This document shows positions 9,089 through 64,000 of a DNA stretch of 64,000 nucleotides, one piece after another. Within the stretch, counting starts at the first letter, position 1; every line of letters begins with the position of its first letter. The position numbers were made by a program, and so were the translations under genes. The notes beneath the pieces are model-generated. The model saw only the letters and a program-made list of their open reading frames with translations, had not been told where the DNA came from and searched no databases. Origin of the DNA: Candidatus Woesearchaeota archaeon (GTDB lineage: Archaea > Nanobdellota > Nanobdellia > SCGC-AAA011-G17 > CAYFGV01); assembly GCA_964452525.1 (NCBI GenBank), contig CAYVLZ010000001.1:65742-129741 (forward strand), written 5' to 3'.

Positions 9089-9124
9089 TGGAAAGTTTTT
9101 TAAGACATTAAAGTTTAATTATTT

Positions 9125-9385
9125 TGTAGGCTAGACTGGGCTGGTAGCCGTAGCTTGTAACCGTAAATCGGCTTTATGACGGGGTTGAAGTCTGGTGAGG
9201 TTCAAGATTTAGTTAGTGGTCTTGGTCCGTACGTTGATCCTTTGTCCTGTAGGGTCGGTAGTTTTGAGAATCTAGTCAGGATGGGAACATAGCAGCTATA
9301 ATCATTACTACTGGCGCTTATGGGGTAACAAGGGGGAGGAAAGATCAAGGTTAAGCCATTGGCTAGATCTTGTATCGAATCCAGG
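9125..9385 (+). ncRNA. Putative signal recognition particle RNA (7S/SRP RNA)
   Basis: GC-rich ~260-nt island in an AT-rich intergenic region. Contains GUCAGGAUGGGAACAUAGCAGC, resembling the conserved SRP RNA helix-8 motif GUCAGGCCGGAAGGGAGCAGC. 5' hairpin GGCUAGACUGGGCUGGUAGCC. Boundaries approximate. Confidence 0.5.
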
Positions 9386-9390
9386 CATGC

Positions 9391-9870
9391 CTACTTCATT
9401 ATTTCACTTCTAATTTCTAAGATTATGTCACCAAGATTTTGAGCTATTGTAGAATACATTTTTTGTATTATTACTTGATACATGGTTTCTTTTAATGGAC
9501 CTGAGCAATATTCAATGTTCTCCGAAGTTTTTGATATCATATCGAATGTTATTTCTTCTTTCGGTATTTTACAGTCCATGTCTTTTCCGAGAAATATATC
9601 TGTTTCAGGAGACGAATCTTTGATGTCAACTATTTTTACATTTATAACACATCTATCTCCTTCAGAACCTTTTACAGTATAAAGGAATGTTGTTTCGTTA
9701 TTCTCAATTAAAACTCTGGCTTTATTACATTTGCTTGCAGCTTTATTGAAACAGAGTTTATCGTCGTTACAGTTTTTTTCATAACCGATATAGAAAACTA
9801 CAAAAATAATGAAAAGCATTACCAAGATAGGTATTGCTTTATTTGAAGACCTCTTTTTTGGTTTTTTCAT
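9391..9870 (-). CDS. Membrane-anchored hypothetical protein
   Basis: N-terminal basic stretch plus TM helix (IPILVMLFIIFVVFYIGY); Cys-containing ectodomain. Confidence 0.45.
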   Translation of the reverse strand: MKKPKKRSSNKAIPILVMLFIIFVVFYIGYEKNCNDDKLCFNKAASKCNKARVLIENNETTFLYTVKGSEGDRCVINVKIVDIKDSSPETDIFLGKDMDCKIPKEEITFDMISKTSENIEYCSGPLKETMYQVIIQKMYSTIAQNLGDIILEIRSEIMK

Positions 9871-25051: not shown

Positions 25052-25098
25052 TAGTTATCAAGAAAGCTTTAAAAATGATACTATTTCTTTTAAATTGT

Positions 25099-25171
25099 AG
25101 CCCCGTAGTCTAGTGGTCAAGGATAGCGGACTTTGGATCCGTTGACGGAGGTTCGAATCCTCCCGGGGCTA
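25099..25171 (+). tRNA. tRNA-Gln (anticodon TTG)
   Basis: Cloverleaf with acceptor AGCCCCG/CGGGGCT, D-arm GUCU/GGAU, anticodon arm GCGGA-CUUUGGA-UCCGU, T-arm GGAGG-UUCGAAU-CCUCC. No encoded CCA. Confidence 0.85.
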
Positions 25172-25214
25172 TCAAAATCTTTATAAACTATTAGAATAAA
25201 CATTAAACTGTAAA

Positions 25215-40737: not shown

Positions 40738-40834
40738 TGCGGGAGACAGGGTTCGAACCTGCGTAGGCACTAAGCCATTGGGTTTCTTATTATTATCCTA
40801 AGCCCAACCCGTTTGACCACTCCGGCACTCCCGC
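40738..40834 (-). tRNA. tRNA-Leu (anticodon TAG) with a 13-nt canonical-position intron
   Basis: Minus strand. GCGGGAG-UG-CCG..CGG-G-UUGGG-CUUAGG[AUAAUAAUAAGAA]A-CCCAA plus a long variable arm UGGCUUAGUGCCUA and T-arm GCAGG-UUCGAAC-CCUGU. Confidence 0.8.
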
Positions 40835-56813: not shown

Positions 56814-56915
56814 GGGCCCGTGGCTTAGCCTGGTTAAAGCGCTGGTCTTATATGACGGTTAAGCTAACAGCTCTAAGAGAGCCAGAGATCGCCAGTTCAA
56901 ATCTGGCCGGGCCCA
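56814..56915 (+). tRNA. tRNA-Ile (anticodon TAT) with ~27-nt canonical-position intron
   Basis: GGGCCCG-UG-GCUU-AGCCUGGUUA-AAGC-G-CUGGU-CUUAUA[intron]A-GCCAG-AGAUC-GCCAG-UUCAAAU-CUGGC-CGGGCCC-A; mature loop CUUAUAA. Followed by T5. Confidence 0.65.
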
Positions 56916-57750: not shown

Positions 57751-57881
57751 GCTCCTGTAGTCTAGTCCGGCCAAGGATGCAGTTGCTTTGCAGCAGAACC
57801 CTTTCGAGTAAGCTTTTTAGGAAAAGCTTAACCAAAAATCGAAGAAAGGCTGAGACCCGGGTTCAAATCCCGGCAGGAGCA
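57751..57881 (+). tRNA. tRNA-Glu (anticodon TTC) with two intervening segments (about 16 nt before and about 40 nt after the anticodon loop)
   Basis: Acceptor GCUCCUG/CAGGAGC+A. D-loop AGUCCGGCCAAGGAU and T-arm GACCCGGGUUCAAAUCCCGG are characteristic of archaeal tRNA-Glu. Loop CUUUCGA at 57801-57807. The anticodon stem CAGUU/GGCUG forms only after removing 57785-57800 and 57808-57847. Confidence 0.55.
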
Positions 57882-59157: not shown

Positions 59158-59775
59158 TAAGCTTTATATATAAGTCTGCTTCTTAAATCGTTACCTCATG
59201 AGGGAGATAGTGTTTTTATCTTCTAATAAATTTTCTTTGAGGGTAATTTATGAATACTTGATGTTTTATTAAGTATGATGTACAGACCTAGTAAGATAGT
59301 AGAGTTTCCTGCTAACTTTTTTTGCGATCACAATAATTCCCGTTGATCCTGCGGGAGGTTGCTGCTATTCGGATTCGACTTAGCCATGCAAGTCAGGGAG
59401 CTTCGGCTGCCGGCGTAAGGCTCAGTAACACGTAGTTAACTTACCCTTAGATCCAGGATAACCTCTGGGAAACTGAGGATAATACTGGATAAGGAATTGT
59501 TGCTGGAAGGCACTTTTCCTCAAAAGTAATGTCTAAGGATAGGACTGCGGCTGATTAGATTGTTGGTGAGGTAATGGCTCACCAAGTCTGGGATCAGTAG
59601 GGGGGATGAGAGTCCTAGCCCCGAGAAGGGCACTGAGAAACTGGCCCTAGTCCTAAGGGATGCAGCAGGCGCGAAACCTTTACAATGCACGAAAGTGTGA
59701 TAAGGGGATCCGAAGTGCTTTGCCTTTGGTAAAGCTTTTGTCAAGTGTAAATAGCTTGAAGAATAAGGAGTGGGT

Positions 59776-59809
<34 letters not shown>

Positions 59810-60192
59810 CTCCAAGTGGCAACCGTTTTTATTGGGTCTAAAGCGTCCGTAGCCGGTTTAGCAAATCTTTTGTGAAATTGTTCTGCTTAACAGAACAGCG
59901 TGCAAGAGACACTGTTGAACTTGGAACCGGGAGGGGATAGAAGTATTCTTTGGGGAGCGGTAAAATGCTATAATCCTTGGAAGACTACCTATGGCGAAGG
60001 CATCTATCCAGAACGGGTTCGACGGTGAGGGACGAAGGCTGGGGGAGCGAACAGGATTAGATACCCTGGTAGTCCCAGCAGTAAACGCTGCGAGCTGGGT
60101 GACGCGTGTTCTTCGAGGACATGCGGTGCCTAAGTGAAGACGTTAAGCTCGCCACCTGGGAAGTATGATCGCAAGATTGAAACTTAAAGGAA

Positions 60193-60828
60193 AGAGACTA
60201 AGAAGAAAACTATAAAAGGAATAAGATCCACTAATTACTATGGATAACAGTAAACTTTGTTATATATTGGGAGCATTGAGAGATTCAAGCATCGACATCA
60301 GGAAAGGGAAAAATTACGAGTTAAAGTTCAGTCAAAAGGATGAAAGATGGTTGTTTTATATATCTGACTTAATCTATTGTCTTTTTGGTGAGAGATTTAA
60401 TGTAAGAAATAATATGTTGAGGATTACCAACAAAAACATTGTATTAGAGATTCAAAATGTTTCAGAAATGGTTTCTCCACAAAAGTATTGGAAGACACCA
60501 TCTTTTGTTTTTAAGTTAGATGTTCTGGATTTAATTCCTTATATTCAAGGTTTCTGGGATGCTGAAGGTGGTTTACCTAGAAAACCTTTGATTGCTAAAC
60601 AGAAATATTTGTCTTTTGATCAGAAAAACAAACAATGTTTGTTTTTCTTGAGAACAAAATTGCTAAAGTTGGGATATAGACCAACAAACCTGACTTTTAC
60701 TAACCATGTTTGGCAATTTCGATTGACAAGAAAAAATGATATAATAAGTTATATTCAAAATATAGGTTCTTCACATCCCGAGAAATCTTCTCGAATGTTA
60801 AAAATGATTTCTTCTTTGTCTCCCTGAT
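60193..60828 (+). other. 16S rRNA intron 1 (~636 nt) inserted after AAAGGAA (E. coli ~position 908-915)
   Basis: Universal AAACUUAAAGGAAUUGGCGGGGGAGCAC is split at GGAA|UUGG by a 636-nt insert carrying a LAGLIDADG ORF. Confidence 0.75.
60240..60827 (+). CDS. LAGLIDADG homing endonuclease (16S intron-encoded)
   Basis: Two LAGLIDADG-type motifs: LCYILGALRDSS and YIQGFWDAEGG. The stop codon abuts the 3' splice site. Confidence 0.8.
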   Translation: MDNSKLCYILGALRDSSIDIRKGKNYELKFSQKDERWLFYISDLIYCLFGERFNVRNNMLRITNKNIVLEIQNVSEMVSPQKYWKTPSFVFKLDVLDLIPYIQGFWDAEGGLPRKPLIAKQKYLSFDQKNKQCLFFLRTKLLKLGYRPTNLTFTNHVWQFRLTRKNDIISYIQNIGSSHPEKSSRMLKMISSLSP

Positions 60829-61112
60829 TTGGCGGGGGCTCACCACAAGGAGTGGAGCGTGCGGTTTAATTGGATTCTACACCGGAAATCTCACCAGGAG
60901 CGATGGCAGGATGAAGGTCAGATTGAAGGTCTTACCTAACAGGCCAAGAGGAGGTGCATGGCCGCCGTCAGTTCGTGCCGTGAGGTATCATGCTAAGCCA
61001 TGCAACGAACGAGACCCATGCCTGTATTTGCTAACAGGTTTTTATGACTGAGCACAATACAGGGACCGCCTTCGAAAGGAGGAGGAAGGTGTGGGCAACG
61101 GTAGGTCAGTAT

Positions 61113-61173
61113 ACGCTGGAGCTTTCCTATTCATTCCAATGAATTGTGTGCTTATGTTAGCTTAGCGGCTAAA
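61113..61173 (+). other. 16S rRNA intron 2 (~61 nt, no ORF) between GGUAGGUCAGUAU and GCCCCGAAUCUCCUGGGCUACACGCG
   Basis: The conserved ~1210 region is interrupted by ACGCUGGAGCUUUCCUAUUCAUUCCAAUGAAUUGUGUGCUUAUGUUAGCUUAGCGGCUAAA. Boundaries ±3 nt. Confidence 0.5.
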
Positions 61174-61540
61174 GCCCCGAATCTCCTGGGCTACACGCGC
61201 GCAACAATGGTAAGGACAATGGGTCGCAACTCCGAAAGGAGAAGCCAATCCTCGAAACCTTGCCCTAGTTCGGATTGAGGACTGTAACTTGTTCTCATGA
61301 CGCTGGAATTCCTAGTAATCGGGTTTCATTATGGCCCGGTGAACATGTCCCTGAGCCTTGCACACACTGCCCGTCAAATCAACCGAGCAGGGTCTAGGTG
61401 AGGATTAATTTTTTGGTTAATTCGAACCTAGGTTCAGTAAGGTGGGTTAAGTCGTCACAAGGTAACCGTAGGGGAACCTGCTGTTGGATCACCTCCTTTT
61501 ATTTTTGAAGCTTTACTATACTAGAAGGTCTGTACTTTAT

Positions 61541-61711: not shown

Positions 61712-62327
61712 TACAAACTTTTTAAGAAAAAGTTTGATTAAAAAGTGAAAAAGTTTGAAAACTTTAAAACTTTGTTAGATATCATGTTTTTCATTTTTAA
61801 TAATGCAGCTCGATAATGAATATTTCGGGTGAAGAGCTTTAATATTTATTGAAGCTATGCATAGGCTATACTTCCCACGCCATTAGATGGATGACTTGGC
61901 TCAGAATGACGATGAAGAGCGTGGCAAGCTGCGATAAGCTTTGGGAAGGCGCATGCAGCCTTTGAACCAAAGATCCTTGAATGAGACTTCTTGTCTCTTT
62001 GAGACGATCAGTAGTGATCGGTGACGCGGTGAATTGAAGCGTCTTAGTAACCGCAGGAAAAGAAATCAAATGAGATGCCGTTATTATCAGCGAGAGAAAG
62101 CGGTATAAGACAAACCGAATTCTTATTAGAGATAATAAGAACATGTGGTGTTGTAGGACTTACTTTTAATCTTACTGGATGACTTAAAGTTCTCTGGAAA
62201 GAGATGCCTTAGAAGGTGACAGCCCTGTAGAGGAAGTCCAGAAGATGTGTAAGTATCCTGAGTAGGGCTCATTGGTTATTGAGTCTGAATTTGGGAGACA
62301 TTAACTTCCAATCTTAAATACATTCTG

Positions 62328-62360
<33 letters not shown>

Positions 62361-63010
62361 TTGAAAAGAACCCTTAACAGGGAGTTAAAAGATCCTGAAA
62401 TCTAATGGTAATGGTGTGATACTGCTCTTCGGAGTTGTATCGTGCGTTTTGAATAACGCGCCAGGGAGTGTATTTAAGTGGCGAAAGTAAATCTTTTGGA
62501 TGTACTTGAAAGGAAACTGAATGCTCGCAAGTAATGAGGAGCAGGGTATTAATGTGCCTTAAGTCACTTGGATACGACCCGAAACCAGGTGATCTAACCC
62601 TGAGCAAGGTGAAGCAATAGCGATATTGTGGAGGCCTGAAGAGGTGCTGTGGTAAAAGCGTTCTTCTGACTTGGGGTTAGGGGTGAAAAGCCAATCGAAC
62701 CTGGTGATAGCTGGTTCCTGTCGAAGTGGGCCGTAGTCCAGTCTCGAGCGAGATTGTTAGTATTGTAGAGCTACGGATTAGAAATTTAGGGGAAGAAATT
62801 CCTCGGTTTCTCGTCCAACTCCAAATGTGCTAATGTCATAGACCTCGGGAGACGGGGGTAGGCGGTAAGCGTCTATTCCGAGAGGGGAACAACCCTAACT
62901 GTAGTTAAGGTCCCAAAATACTGGTTAAGTGTTAAAGGGTGAAAGGTGTATATCTTCATAGACAGCGGGGAGGTAGGCTTAGAAGCAGCCATCCTTTAAA
63001 GAAAGCGTAA

Positions 63011-63679
63011 GTTGTTTACTAGCGATAACTTTATATAATCAGATGACTTAGAATACTATGCAGCTCACCTGTGATTTAGCTTATTTGCTTGGAGCTTTGA
63101 GAGACGGAACAGTCACAAGATATAAAGAAAAGAATAAAACACATAGTCATGTGACGTTCTATAGTAAAGACATTGAATGGTTAACATATCTACAGAAACT
63201 GTTTAATAAAGTTTTTCAAGAGGAGCTAAAAGTGAATAAGCCCAAAGGTGGTACAGCATATATACGAAAGTATTCTAAGGAACTCGTTAATCTTTTAGAA
63301 AAAAGATTTCAACATCCTGTTGGGAAACAGATAAAGTGGGAAACTCCAGATTCTTTGTTAAAATCTAGTAACAAAAAAATTTGGGCAAGTTATATTTCAG
63401 GTTTCTTCGATGCAGAAGGAGGGACAATTCCAGGAAGACAAATTATTTTTTACTTGTCAGGGGATGGAGAAAGATGCCCAGTTTTAGAAGACATTAAGAA
63501 GAAATTAAAAAGTATGTTTGACATTGATAGCGGAAAGGTAAGAGGATATGAAAATAAAAATGGAGTTTATCCTAGATTCTGTTTAAGGATAGCGAGTAAG
63601 AGAAGTAGAGCTTTATTTTGTGAGCATATAAAGCTTCATAATCCTAGTAAGATAATTAGGCTAGTAAACAGCCGCTAGA
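63011..63679 (+). other. 23S rRNA intron (~669 nt) inserted in the conserved GCGUAA|UAGCUCAC helix region (E. coli ~1090)
   Basis: Conserved sequence is split; flanking duplicated AGCUCACCUGU segments (intron 5' region and exon 2) are consistent with a BHB intron. Confidence 0.7.
63058..63678 (+). CDS. LAGLIDADG homing endonuclease (23S intron-encoded)
   Basis: LAYLLGALRDGTV and YISGFFDAEGG motifs. Clearly paralogous to the 16S intron ORF. The stop codon abuts the 3' splice site. Confidence 0.8.
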   Translation: MQLTCDLAYLLGALRDGTVTRYKEKNKTHSHVTFYSKDIEWLTYLQKLFNKVFQEELKVNKPKGGTAYIRKYSKELVNLLEKRFQHPVGKQIKWETPDSLLKSSNKKIWASYISGFFDAEGGTIPGRQIIFYLSGDGERCPVLEDIKKKLKSMFDIDSGKVRGYENKNGVYPRFCLRIASKRSRALFCEHIKLHNPSKIIRLVNSR

Positions 63680-64000
63680 TAGCTCACCTGTCAAGAGGTT
63701 ATGCCCTGAAGATGGACGGGGCTAAATCAGTTACCGATACTACAGACTAGCTAAGGCTAAGTGGTAGACAGGCGTTCTGCTTGACTAGAAGCTATTTCGT
63801 GAGAGGTAGTGGATCGAGTAGAAATGAGAATCCTGGTAGTAGTAGGAGCTAAACAGAGTGAGAATCTCTGATACCGTAAGGGCAAGGGTTTCTTAGCACT
63901 GCAGTTCAGCTAAGAGTAAGTTGATCCTAACTTGATTCATAAATTGACGTCGAGGAAAGGGAAAAAGGTTAAGATTCCTTTACTAATTGGATACTTATGG

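What the first reader, a model, noticed from the sequence alone, without database searches (positions are those of the whole stretch)
63011..63679. 23S rRNA intron with a second, paralogous LAGLIDADG endonuclease
GCGUAA|UAGCUCAC, normally contiguous, is split by a 669-nt insert encoding a 206-aa double-motif LAGLIDADG protein (LGALRDGTV / FFDAEGG). The protein is clearly related to the 16S intron ORF, and its stop codon again abuts the 3' splice site. Both rRNAs in one operon host related homing endonucleases, suggesting intron spread within the operon.
Basis: partly seen in the sequence, partly recalled or inferred. Interest (0 to 1): 0.55.

Follow-up and report, generated by a model that had tools for sequence, protein, structure and literature searches.

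The report
Archaeal 23S rRNA intron with homing endonuclease
The 23S rRNA gene of this small-genome archaeon is interrupted by a 669-base protein-spliced (bulge-helix-bulge) intron that carries an intact I-DmoI-like homing endonuclease gene: a real but ordinary selfish element, and not a recent copy of the intron in the neighbouring 16S gene.

Summary
The archaeal 23S model aligns across GCGUAA/UAGCUCAC with 671 nt where the consensus has 2. The insert is 63011-63679, or 63010-63678 because the junction slides by 1 nt. It lies between E. coli A1095 and A1096, in the GTPase-associated centre.

The insert encodes a 206-aa, two-motif LAGLIDADG protein. Its model is confident (pLDDT 92) and its nearest solved relatives are I-DmoI, PI-PfuI and I-Tsp061I.

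The junctions fold into a bulge-helix-bulge motif that predicts the correct ligated rRNA. Across nine loci with an intron at this site, 94% of cells pair and 13 of 16 pairs show compensatory changes. No group I or II ribozyme is detectable, and only 48 nt are non-coding.

The same site holds orthologous endonuclease genes (44-74% aa) in other DPANN MAGs and in Zestosphaera. It holds ORF-less mini-introns in two Aenigmatarchaeota MAGs and is empty in the nearest Woesearchaeota relatives.

The 16S-intron ORF is a true homologue (29%, E 7e-14). In a 91-protein tree, however, the endonucleases cluster by insertion site. The 16S ORF's nearest relative (56%) sits at 16S site 919 in another genome. 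Recent spread within the operon is therefore not supported.

Verdict: a new member of a known kind, of low to moderate interest.

The parts
61863..63009 (+). 23S rRNA exon 1 (5' part of the gene, up to E. coli A1095)
   Evidence: Rfam LSU_rRNA_archaea, 1107 bits. E. coli numbering.
63010..63678 (+). The intron, 669 nt, with boundaries as predicted by the BHB cuts (equivalent to 63011-63679 because of the A/A slide)
   Evidence: 671-nt insertion in the cmscan alignment. BHB geometry read from the sequence. GC is 33% against 44% for the flanking exons.
63004..63007 (+). Central 4-bp helix of the BHB, 5' strand (exon AGCG, E. coli 1090-1093); pairs with 63673-63676
   Evidence: MFE fold of a junction mini-construct. 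97% of cells pair across 9 loci, and the first pair occurs as A-U, U-A and C-G.
63008..63010 (+). 5' splice-site bulge UAA; predicted cut between A63009 and A63010
   Evidence: Three unpaired nt lie between the 4-bp helix and the 13-bp helix. UAA is invariant in 9 loci.
63011..63023 (+). Intron-internal helix, 5' strand (GUUGUUUACUAGC); pairs with 63660-63672
   Evidence: A 13-bp helix in the MFE, z = -3.9 against shuffles. All 12 tested pairs show compensatory changes across loci.
63029..63038 (+). TATA-box-like motif CTTTATATAA, about 20-29 nt upstream of the ATG (possible internal promoter; inferred only)
   Evidence: Similar A/T motifs lie at the same distance from the ATG in L002, L004-L006 and in the S919 introns. 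Not tested further.
63058..63678 (+). Homing endonuclease ORF, 206 aa, two LAGLIDADG motifs (D16 and E120 are the predicted catalytic residues)
   Evidence: ORF list. Pfam LAGLIDADG_3, E 1.5e-7. Family profile against PDB: I-DmoI E 2e-11, PI-PfuI E 1.2e-12. AF2 pLDDT 92.4 and Foldseek hits to I-DmoI with TM 0.65-0.77. dN/dS about 0.08 against L002.
63660..63672 (+). Intron-internal helix, 3' strand (GCUAGUAAACAGC), inside the 3' end of the ORF
63673..63676 (+). Central 4-bp helix, 3' strand (intron CGCU)
63677..63679 (+). 3' splice-site bulge AGA; predicted cut between G63678 and A63679. The exon-side helix is reduced to at most one A-U pair (A63003:U63680), so the motif is relaxed on this side.
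   Evidence: Read from the sequence. The MFE does not close this bulge with an exon helix.
63679..64000 (+). 23S rRNA exon 2 (runs past the end of the window)
   Evidence: L001 continues the same sequence for a further 580 nt.

Best explanation
This is an archaeal bulge-helix-bulge (BHB) intron in the 23S rRNA gene. It is inserted between A1095 and A1096 (E. coli numbering), in the hairpin loop of the GTPase-associated centre. It carries a free-standing, monomeric, two-domain LAGLIDADG homing endonuclease gene of the I-DmoI type.

Proposed mechanism. In the pre-rRNA, exon bases AGCG (1090-1093) pair with intron bases CGCU just upstream of the 3' junction. The two ends of the intron also form a 13-bp helix. 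Together these present the two splice sites in 3-nt bulges separated by 4 bp. The host tRNA-splicing endonuclease cuts two nucleotides into each bulge. An RtcB-type ligase then joins the exons to restore GCGUA-AUAGCUC and probably circularises the intron. The endonuclease protein is made from the intron, possibly from its own TATA-like promoter as a leaderless mRNA. It cuts the intron-less 23S rDNA at the same site, and recombinational repair copies the intron in (homing).

Shown here: the insertion, the BHB pairing and its covariation, the absence of a ribozyme, the protein fold with conserved catalytic residues and purifying selection, and the presence/absence pattern of the intron across lineages. 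Inferred: the actual cleavage and ligation, circularisation, endonuclease activity and target, and promoter use.
For: Insertion: cmscan shows 671 nt against 2 at GCGUAA/GCUCAC, and E. coli has the contiguous sequence at 1091-1104.

BHB: the mini-construct MFE gives a 4-bp helix, a UAA bulge and a 13-bp helix, z = -3.9. On 9 loci with an intron at this site, 94.4% of cells pair against 38-50% when partners are slid. 13 of 16 pairs have changes on both sides, and 0 of 500 shuffles reach the observed score. The predicted cuts regenerate the consensus rRNA.

No ribozyme: no group I or II match even at E <= 10, and only 48 nt are non-coding.

Protein: Pfam LAGLIDADG_3; profile hits to I-DmoI over its full length at E 2e-11; AF2 pLDDT 92.4, pTM 0.91, with two alpha-beta-beta-alpha-beta-beta-alpha halves; Foldseek top hits are PI-PfuI, the TliVMA intein endonuclease, I-DmoI and I-Tsp061I. 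D16 and E120 are invariant in 17 relatives. dN/dS is about 0.08 against the 74%-identical orthologue.

Homing-cycle pattern: the same site is occupied with an endonuclease gene in L002-L006, L010 and L021, holds ORF-less mini-introns in L022 and L038, and is empty in L023, L034, L046, L055 and others.

The host splices BHB introns: two tRNA genes in the window carry anticodon-loop inserts.

Precedent: BHB rRNA introns with LAGLIDADG genes are well described in Crenarchaeota (PMC4496867) and were noted alongside group I introns in archaeal metagenomic rRNA genes, many from DPANN lineages (PMC6125680).
Against: The 3' bulge is not closed by an exon-exon helix; at most one A-U pair is available, and the MFE pairs these bases elsewhere. 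The motif is therefore relaxed (bulge-helix-loop-like) and would need an endonuclease of broad specificity. That enzyme was not identified, because it is not in the window. There are no RNA data, so splicing, ligation and circularisation are unproven. Endonuclease activity and target are untested. The covariation alignment was built by anchoring on the proposed motif, which favours it somewhat.
Confidence: 0.88

Rival explanations
1. Recent intra-operon spread: the 23S intron arose in this genome (or a close ancestor) by transposition of the 16S intron and its endonuclease gene to a new site.
For: The two ORFs are homologous (29% identity, E 7e-14). Both lie in one 16S-23S unit on the same strand. 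Both have the stop codon at the 3' junction and a similar 47-nt leader ending in ...TACT ATG.
Against: Each ORF has far closer relatives at its own site in other genomes: 74-44% for L1095/1096 and 56-43% for S919. The tree clusters by site, not by genome. The introns share no DNA similarity except 33 nt over motif 2. Site-switching must have happened at some point in the family, but long before this genome existed.
Confidence: 0.04
2. A group I (self-splicing) intron with a LAGLIDADG gene, like those reported in DPANN 23S genes at L1923, L1931, L2500 and L2593.
For: Group I introns with LAGLIDADG genes do occur in Woese-, Pace- and Micrarchaeota rRNA (PMC6125680). Fungal nuclear rDNA has group I introns at the neighbouring sites L1090 and L1094 (PMC1299323).
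Against: No Intron_gpI or other ribozyme hit, either at the gathering threshold or at E <= 10. The ORF fills 621 of 669 nt, leaving 47 + 1 nt. The junctions instead form a covarying BHB. ORF-less versions at this site are only 74 and 164 nt long, too short for a group I core.
Confidence: 0.02
3. An intervening sequence that is excised but not re-ligated, leaving a fragmented 23S rRNA, or an insert retained as an expansion segment.
For: No RNA data are available. rRNA insertions in CPR bacteria that carry related LAGLIDADG_3 genes are reported as removed from transcripts, and not all are classified as introns (PMC11270868). The 3' side of the motif is relaxed.
Against: The BHB register gives exact restoration of the universally conserved GUAAUA loop. 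The host has intron-bearing tRNAs, which require a ligase. The site is the functionally critical A1095 loop. Retaining a 669-nt coding insert there is implausible.
Confidence: 0.05
4. The endonuclease gene is no longer a mobile-element nuclease and has been kept for another role, for example as an RNA chaperone or maturase, or as a DNA-binding protein.
For: Strong purifying selection (dN/dS about 0.08), which a purely selfish gene fixed in a single-copy target need not show. LAGLIDADG maturases and WhiA appear among the fold hits.
Against: Both catalytic acidic residues and the motif glycines are invariant across the family. The presence/absence/mini-intron pattern fits ongoing homing and loss. 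The ORF is 74% identical between hosts whose 23S exons are only 79% identical, which suggests lateral movement. BHB splicing needs no maturase.
Confidence: 0.06

Closest known systems
I-DmoI and the Desulfurococcus mobilis 23S rRNA intron (archaeal BHB intron with a monomeric two-motif LAGLIDADG endonuclease)
   Same: Host gene (23S rRNA). Protein-dependent BHB-type intron. A single roughly 200-aa ORF filling the intron. Two LAGLIDADG motifs ending in D and E. Full-length profile match, E 2e-11. Fold match with TM 0.65-0.77.
   Different: Only about 18-20% sequence identity. A different insertion site (the L1095/1096 GTPase-associated centre), and so presumably a different DNA target. The host is a mesophile-like, 33% GC DPANN archaeon rather than a hyperthermophilic crenarchaeon.
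16S rRNA introns of Thermoproteales, Desulfurococcales and Aigarchaeota at loci 908 and 919 (Jay & Inskeep 2015, PMC4496867)
   Same: The companion intron in this window sits exactly at locus 919, and relatives sit at about locus 908. BHB cores, LAGLIDADG genes, ORF-less remnants and site-specific lineages are all described there.
   Different: That survey concerns 16S genes of thermophiles. The element examined here is in 23S and in DPANN lineages.
LAGLIDADG genes in rRNA insertion sequences of CPR bacteria, for example I-ShaI (Tsurumaki et al. 2024, PMC11270868)
   Same: The same Pfam family (LAGLIDADG_3) occurs in rRNA insertions of ultra-small, reduced-genome organisms. CPR homologues of this ORF (27-33% identity) were recovered and sit near 16S positions ~1410-1500 where they could be mapped.
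   Different: The CPR elements are bacterial, where no BHB splicing system is expected, and that paper classifies many of the insertions as group I or II introns. The paper reports mainly single-domain, homodimeric enzymes, whereas this one has two motifs.
Group I introns at L1090 and L1094 in fungal nuclear rDNA (PMC1299323) and archaeal group I introns (PMC6125680)
   Same: The same small region of the large-subunit rRNA is used as an intron site. Archaeal group I introns often carry LAGLIDADG genes.
   Different: Those are self-splicing ribozymes. This insert has no ribozyme core.

Membership tests
Archaeal bulge-helix-bulge (BHB) intron | Two 3-nt bulges on opposite strands separated by a 4-bp helix, at the exon-intron junctions | tested here: met
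   AGCG:CGCU helix, UAA bulge (63008-63010) and AGA bulge (63677-63679). The spacing is exact in all 9 loci.
Archaeal bulge-helix-bulge (BHB) intron | Flanking helices on both sides of the motif (strict hBHBh' form) | tested here: inconclusive
   The intron-side helix is strong (13 bp). The exon-side helix next to the 3' bulge is at most one A-U pair. This fits the relaxed, BHL-like class that broad-specificity endonucleases accept (PMC12397907), not the strict form.
Archaeal bulge-helix-bulge (BHB) intron | Cuts two nt into each bulge give the correct mature RNA | tested here: met
   Cuts at A63009|A63010 and G63678|A63679 give GCGUA+AUAGCUCAC, identical to the contiguous E. coli and archaeal sequence.
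Archaeal bulge-helix-bulge (BHB) intron | The structure is conserved through compensatory change in homologous introns | tested here: met
   94.4% paired, 13 of 16 pairs compensatory, slid controls 38-50%.
Archaeal bulge-helix-bulge (BHB) intron | Cleavage by the tRNA-splicing endonuclease, ligation by RtcB, and a circular intron product | not testable with these tools
   No RNA data are available and the enzymes are not in the window. The only indirect support is intron-bearing tRNA genes at 56814-56915 and 57751-57881.
LAGLIDADG homing endonuclease, monomeric two-motif (I-DmoI type) | Two LAGLIDADG motifs, each ending in a catalytic acidic residue | tested here: met
   LGALRD16G and FFDAE120G; D16 and E120 are invariant in 17 relatives. 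Pfam LAGLIDADG_3, 32 bits against a cut-off of 22.5.
LAGLIDADG homing endonuclease, monomeric two-motif (I-DmoI type) | Pseudo-symmetric fold of two alpha-beta-beta-alpha-beta-beta-alpha domains | tested here: met
   AF2 pLDDT 92.4 with a matching secondary-structure order. Foldseek matches to I-DmoI, PI-PfuI and I-Tsp061I at probability 1.00.
LAGLIDADG homing endonuclease, monomeric two-motif (I-DmoI type) | Site-specific double-strand cleavage of the intron-less allele, and homing | not testable with these tools
   Only the comparative pattern is available: occupied, mini-intron and empty sites and purifying selection.
Group I intron | Conserved P3-P9 ribozyme core | tested here: not met
   No Rfam hit at E <= 10, and only 48 non-coding nt.

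The most novel reading that the evidence does not exclude
The window's element may represent a so-far undescribed lineage of I-DmoI-like homing endonucleases. Its target would be the DNA encoding the A1095/A1096 loop of the 23S GTPase-associated centre (the L11/thiostrepton site). The lineage appears to move among DPANN archaea and reaches Crenarchaeota (Zestosphaera). It would be spliced through a relaxed BHB that lacks the exon-side helix and expressed from a promoter inside the intron. The wider protein family is also shared with rRNA insertions of CPR bacteria, which would imply exchange of endonuclease genes between two domains that remove the inserts by different means. I found no description of this 23S site for archaeal introns in the papers I could search, but key older papers, such as Nomura 1998, were not available to me.
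Probability: 0.4. Interest if true: 0.4.

Novelty: new member of a known kind. Interest (0 to 1): 0.27.

Why it matters
The element breaks the 23S gene at a universally conserved functional loop. Annotation pipelines, primers and probes, and rRNA-based phylogenies of DPANN archaea will therefore mis-handle the gene unless the intron is recognised and removed.

The endonuclease would add a new, long and highly conserved recognition site to the I-DmoI-like scaffold family used for engineered meganucleases.

The strict correspondence between endonuclease clade and rRNA site, across DPANN, Crenarchaeota, Asgard archaea and CPR bacteria, is a clean data set for studying how homing endonucleases switch targets and hosts. 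None of this changes current understanding of how such introns work.

Tried and rejected
- **PDB search with the single sequence.** It found no LAGLIDADG structure. Only the family profile reached I-DmoI.
- **Group I or II intron.** Rejected after Rfam searches at the gathering threshold and at E <= 10.
- **Recent duplication of the 16S intron.** Rejected on protein identity, DNA comparison and the site-sorted tree.
- **Recovering the rest of the contig, and with it the 3' half of the 23S gene and the organism name.** Look-ups by the 16S ORF and by a neighbouring ORF failed because neither protein is on record. Only 580 further nt were obtained, through L001. The cluster look-up gave no names. 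The species-representative genome collection does not contain this genome (best hit 53%). The Woesearchaeota-like assignment therefore rests only on 76-81% rRNA identity to named MAGs and is weak.
- **Mapping every related locus to E. coli coordinates with short blastn.** This worked only roughly, so the labels L~8xx, L~1060 and L~259x are approximate.
- **tRNA detection.** ARAGORN found only one tRNA, whereas Rfam found four.
- **Literature on archaeal introns at this 23S site.** Searches found only fungal group I sites L1090 and L1094. Nomura et al. 1998 on Aeropyrum introns is not held. My recollection that one Aeropyrum 23S intron lies near position 1085 is unverified.
- **A canonical exon-side helix next to the 3' bulge.** I looked for one and did not find it.

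Full report
**1. What is in the sequence**

Rfam places an archaeal 16S rRNA at 59336-61497. An archaeal 23S rRNA starts at 61863 and runs off the end of the window.

A focused cmscan of 62850-63900 aligns the 23S consensus on both sides of a single large insertion. It reads GCGUAA, then 671 nt where the model has 2, then GCUCAC. In E. coli 23S rRNA the string GCGUAAUAGCUCAC is contiguous at 1091-1104. It is also contiguous in several archaeal MAG loci fetched later, for example L046 and L055.

Because A63010 and A63679 are the same base, 63010-63678 is an equivalent description.

The only long ORF in the insert is 63058-63678 (206 aa). It leaves 47-48 nt of leader and 0-1 nt of trailer. The insert has 33% GC, like the window as a whole, against 44% for the flanking 23S exons.

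**2. The RNA: a bulge-helix-bulge intron, not a ribozyme**

Read directly from the sequence:
- Exon bases A63004-G63007 (AGCG, E. coli 1090-1093) are complementary to intron bases C63673-U63676 (CGCU).
- Intron bases 63011-63023 are complementary to 63660-63672, giving a 13-bp helix.
- This leaves U63008-A63010 and A63677-A63679 as 3-nt bulges on opposite strands, 4 bp apart. That is the geometry recognised by the archaeal tRNA-splicing endonuclease (established knowledge; see PMC4496867, and PMC12397907).

Cutting two nucleotides into each bulge (A63009|A63010 and G63678|A63679) and joining the exons gives GCGUA+AUAGCUCAC, which is exactly the consensus.

A 95-nt mini-construct folds into this 4-bp helix, UAA bulge and 13-bp helix as its minimum-energy structure. 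Its energy is -29.5 kcal/mol, z = -3.9, and none of 200 shuffles folds as well.

The exon side of the 3' bulge is not closed by a helix. Only A63003:U63680 could pair, and the MFE pairs these bases elsewhere. The motif is therefore of the relaxed, bulge-helix-loop-like kind. Such motifs are cleaved by broad-specificity endonucleases of the crenarchaeal (alpha-beta)2 and ARMAN epsilon2 types.

No group I or II intron, nor any other plausible RNA family, matches the insert even at E <= 10.

**3. Comparative test of the structure**

A protein search found 16 relatives. A scan of one genome per species found 80 more loci. The same 23S site is interrupted in:
- L002/L003, unnamed metagenome contigs whose 23S is the window's nearest relative (670 nt);
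- L004, L005 and L006 (668-669 nt; L006 is labelled Aenigmatarchaeota);
- L021, Zestosphaera tikiterensis, a crenarchaeon (726 nt);
- L010, Aenigmatarchaeota (1019 nt, with a longer ORF);
- L022 and L038, both Aenigmatarchaeota, where the site holds short ORF-less introns of 74 and 164 nt.

I cut out the junction regions of the nine introns in register and counted pairs for the proposed structure:
- 94.4% of 144 cells form standard pairs, against 38-50% when the 3' partners are slid by 1-3 columns.
- 13 of 16 pairs show changes on both sides.
- None of 500 shuffles reaches the observed covariation score.
- The first pair of the central helix joins an exon base that differs between hosts (A, U or C at position 1090) to an intron base that follows it (U, A or G).

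The alignment was anchored on the motif, which favours it somewhat. The size of the effect and the complete turnover of the 12-bp helix sequence leave little doubt.

**4. The protein**

- The ORF passes Pfam LAGLIDADG_3 (32 bits, cut-off 22.5).
- The 17-sequence family alignment has invariant D16 (LGALRDG) and E120 (FFDAEG). These are the positions of the metal-binding acidic residues at the ends of the two LAGLIDADG helices. The equivalence to I-DmoI D21 and E117 is from established knowledge.
- A profile of that alignment matches I-DmoI over its whole length (E 2e-11) and the endonuclease domain of PI-PfuI (E 1.2e-12). The single sequence alone found nothing.
- AlphaFold2 gives a confident model (pLDDT 92.4, pTM 0.91) with two alpha-beta-beta-alpha-beta-beta-alpha halves.
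- Foldseek against the PDB returns PI-PfuI, the Thermococcus litoralis VMA intein endonuclease, many I-DmoI entries (TM 0.65-0.77) and I-Tsp061I.
- Against its 74%-identical orthologue in L002, dN/dS is about 0.08, with synonymous sites near saturation. The gene is therefore maintained by selection.

**5. Relationship to the 16S-intron ORF**

The 16S gene carries a 636-nt insert at 60193-60828, after E. coli A919. This is a known archaeal 16S intron locus. Its 195-aa ORF is homologous to the 23S ORF, but distantly: 29% identity, E 7e-14. At the DNA level the two introns share only a 33-nt, 82% stretch over the second motif.

Each ORF has much closer relatives at its own site in other genomes:
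- The 23S ORF has relatives at 74, 53, 53, 51 and 44% identity, all at L1095/1096.
- The 16S ORF has relatives at 56% (L040, Woesearchaeota), 50% and 49% (L036, Hermodarchaeum). L040 and L036 show the junction ...CUUAAAGGAA|...|UUGGCGGGGG; for the 50% relative (L028) the 919 junction could not be read and its site label is inferred.

A neighbour-joining tree of 91 relatives falls into clades that correspond to insertion sites: S919, S908, L1095/1096, an approximate L~8xx group, an approximate L~259x group, and a CPR-bacterial clade that maps near 16S 1410-1500 where it could be mapped. The two window ORFs lie in different clades. The tree is simple distance-based and unbootstrapped, but the identities alone make the point.

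The two genes are therefore ancient paralogues. 'Spread within the operon' is not what the data show.

**6. Homing-cycle signature and host**

The L1095/1096 site is empty in the window's nearest rRNA relatives among named MAGs (L023 and L034, Woesearchaeota; 76-81% 23S identity) and in several other DPANN loci. It is occupied by an endonuclease-bearing intron in scattered lineages. In two lineages it holds only a mini-intron that keeps the BHB. This is the expected picture of invasion, endonuclease loss and intron loss.

The ORF is 74% identical between two hosts whose 23S exons are only 79% identical. This suggests transfer more recent than the divergence of the hosts, but that is an inference.

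The window is 33% GC. It carries tRNA genes with anticodon-loop inserts, so the host must possess the BHB splicing machinery. Its assignment to a Woesearchaeota-like DPANN lineage rests only on rRNA similarity and is tentative.

**7. Comparison with what is known, and verdict**

Archaeal rRNA introns that are spliced through a BHB and carry LAGLIDADG genes have been known since the D. mobilis/I-DmoI work. They are catalogued for 16S in Thermoproteales, and BHB introns in archaeal metagenomic rRNA genes, many from DPANN lineages, are mentioned by Nawrocki et al.. Related LAGLIDADG_3 genes in CPR rRNA insertions are described by Tsurumaki et al..

Three things may be new here:
- the particular site, the A1095/A1096 loop of the GTPase-associated centre, for which I found only fungal group I precedents at L1090 and L1094;
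- the corresponding endonuclease lineage;
- the relaxed 3' half of the motif.

This is a well-supported new member of a known kind. Its evolutionary inference is not supported.

Noticed in passing
window 60193-60828 (ORF 60240-60827): The companion 16S rRNA intron (636 nt) sits after E. coli A919, a known archaeal intron locus. By hand its BHB has a central helix of 3 bp plus an A.G mismatch and no exon-side helix. Its mini-construct fold is only weakly better than shuffles (z = -1.8).
   Followed up: partly
window 63029-63038 and 60210-60219; L002, L004-L006 and S919 loci: A TATA-box-like A/T motif (CTTTATATAA, CTATAAAAG, CACTTAAATA...) lies about 20-30 nt upstream of the endonuclease ATG in both window introns and in most relatives. 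This suggests an internal archaeal promoter and a leaderless mRNA. The bases just before the ATG (TACT ATG) are also shared.
   Followed up: partly
window 56814-56915, 57751-57881, 40738-40834 (-): Three tRNA genes found by Rfam are 97-131 nt long. The two examined carry inserts of about 27 and 56 nt in the anticodon-loop region. ARAGORN missed all three and reported only tRNA-Gln at 25098-25173.
   Followed up: partly
L004 701-713, L005, L006, L021: In the 51-53% orthologues L004-L006 the endonuclease reading frame runs through the 3' splice site and ends at the exon UAG (23S 1097-1099); L021 has CAG at that exon position and its ORF stops upstream, inside the intron. In the window and L002 an in-frame UAG forms the last three bases of the intron. 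Some S919 relatives likewise read into the exon (...NWRGSTQ).
   Followed up: partly
L022 326-399 and L038 597-760: ORF-less mini-introns (74 and 164 nt) occupy the same 23S site in two Aenigmatarchaeota MAGs. They keep the UAA bulge, the 4-bp helix and the 3' bulge, and are probably remnants left after endonuclease loss.
   Followed up: partly
L030 2971-4239: A Micrarchaeota MAG has two endonuclease-bearing introns in tandem in its 16S gene, one at about site 908 and one at 919. They are separated by only the 11-nt exon piece ACUUAAAGGAA.
   Followed up: no
L010 2599-3617: A second, unrelated-looking endonuclease lineage occupies the same L1095/1096 site. It has a longer ORF with an N-terminal extension and groups with enzymes from a neighbouring 23S site (about 1060). 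Its central BHB helix has one C.A mismatch.
   Followed up: no
L049-L084 (CPR / Patescibacteria MAGs): 27-33% identical homologues of the window ORF form their own clade. Where flanks could be mapped, they lie in bacterial 16S genes between about positions 1410 and 1500. The protein family is thus shared between DPANN archaea and CPR bacteria.
   Followed up: partly
L012 and L054: Two short contigs binned as 'uncultured Gammaproteobacteria' carry members of this endonuclease family next to rRNA-like sequence. They are possibly mis-binned contigs.
   Followed up: no
L002 5445-6335 and 6584-7183: The closest relative's 23S gene has further ORFs downstream, one of them a 28%-identical LAGLIDADG relative. 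It may therefore carry additional introns in its 3' half. The corresponding part of the window's gene lies beyond the window end and could not be read.
   Followed up: no
window ~62400-62405 (23S model positions ~573-634): The 23S rRNA has 3 nt where the archaeal consensus has 61, a truncated helix consistent with a reduced rRNA.
   Followed up: no
window 9124-9396: An archaeal SRP RNA (Rfam, 137.7 bits).
   Followed up: no
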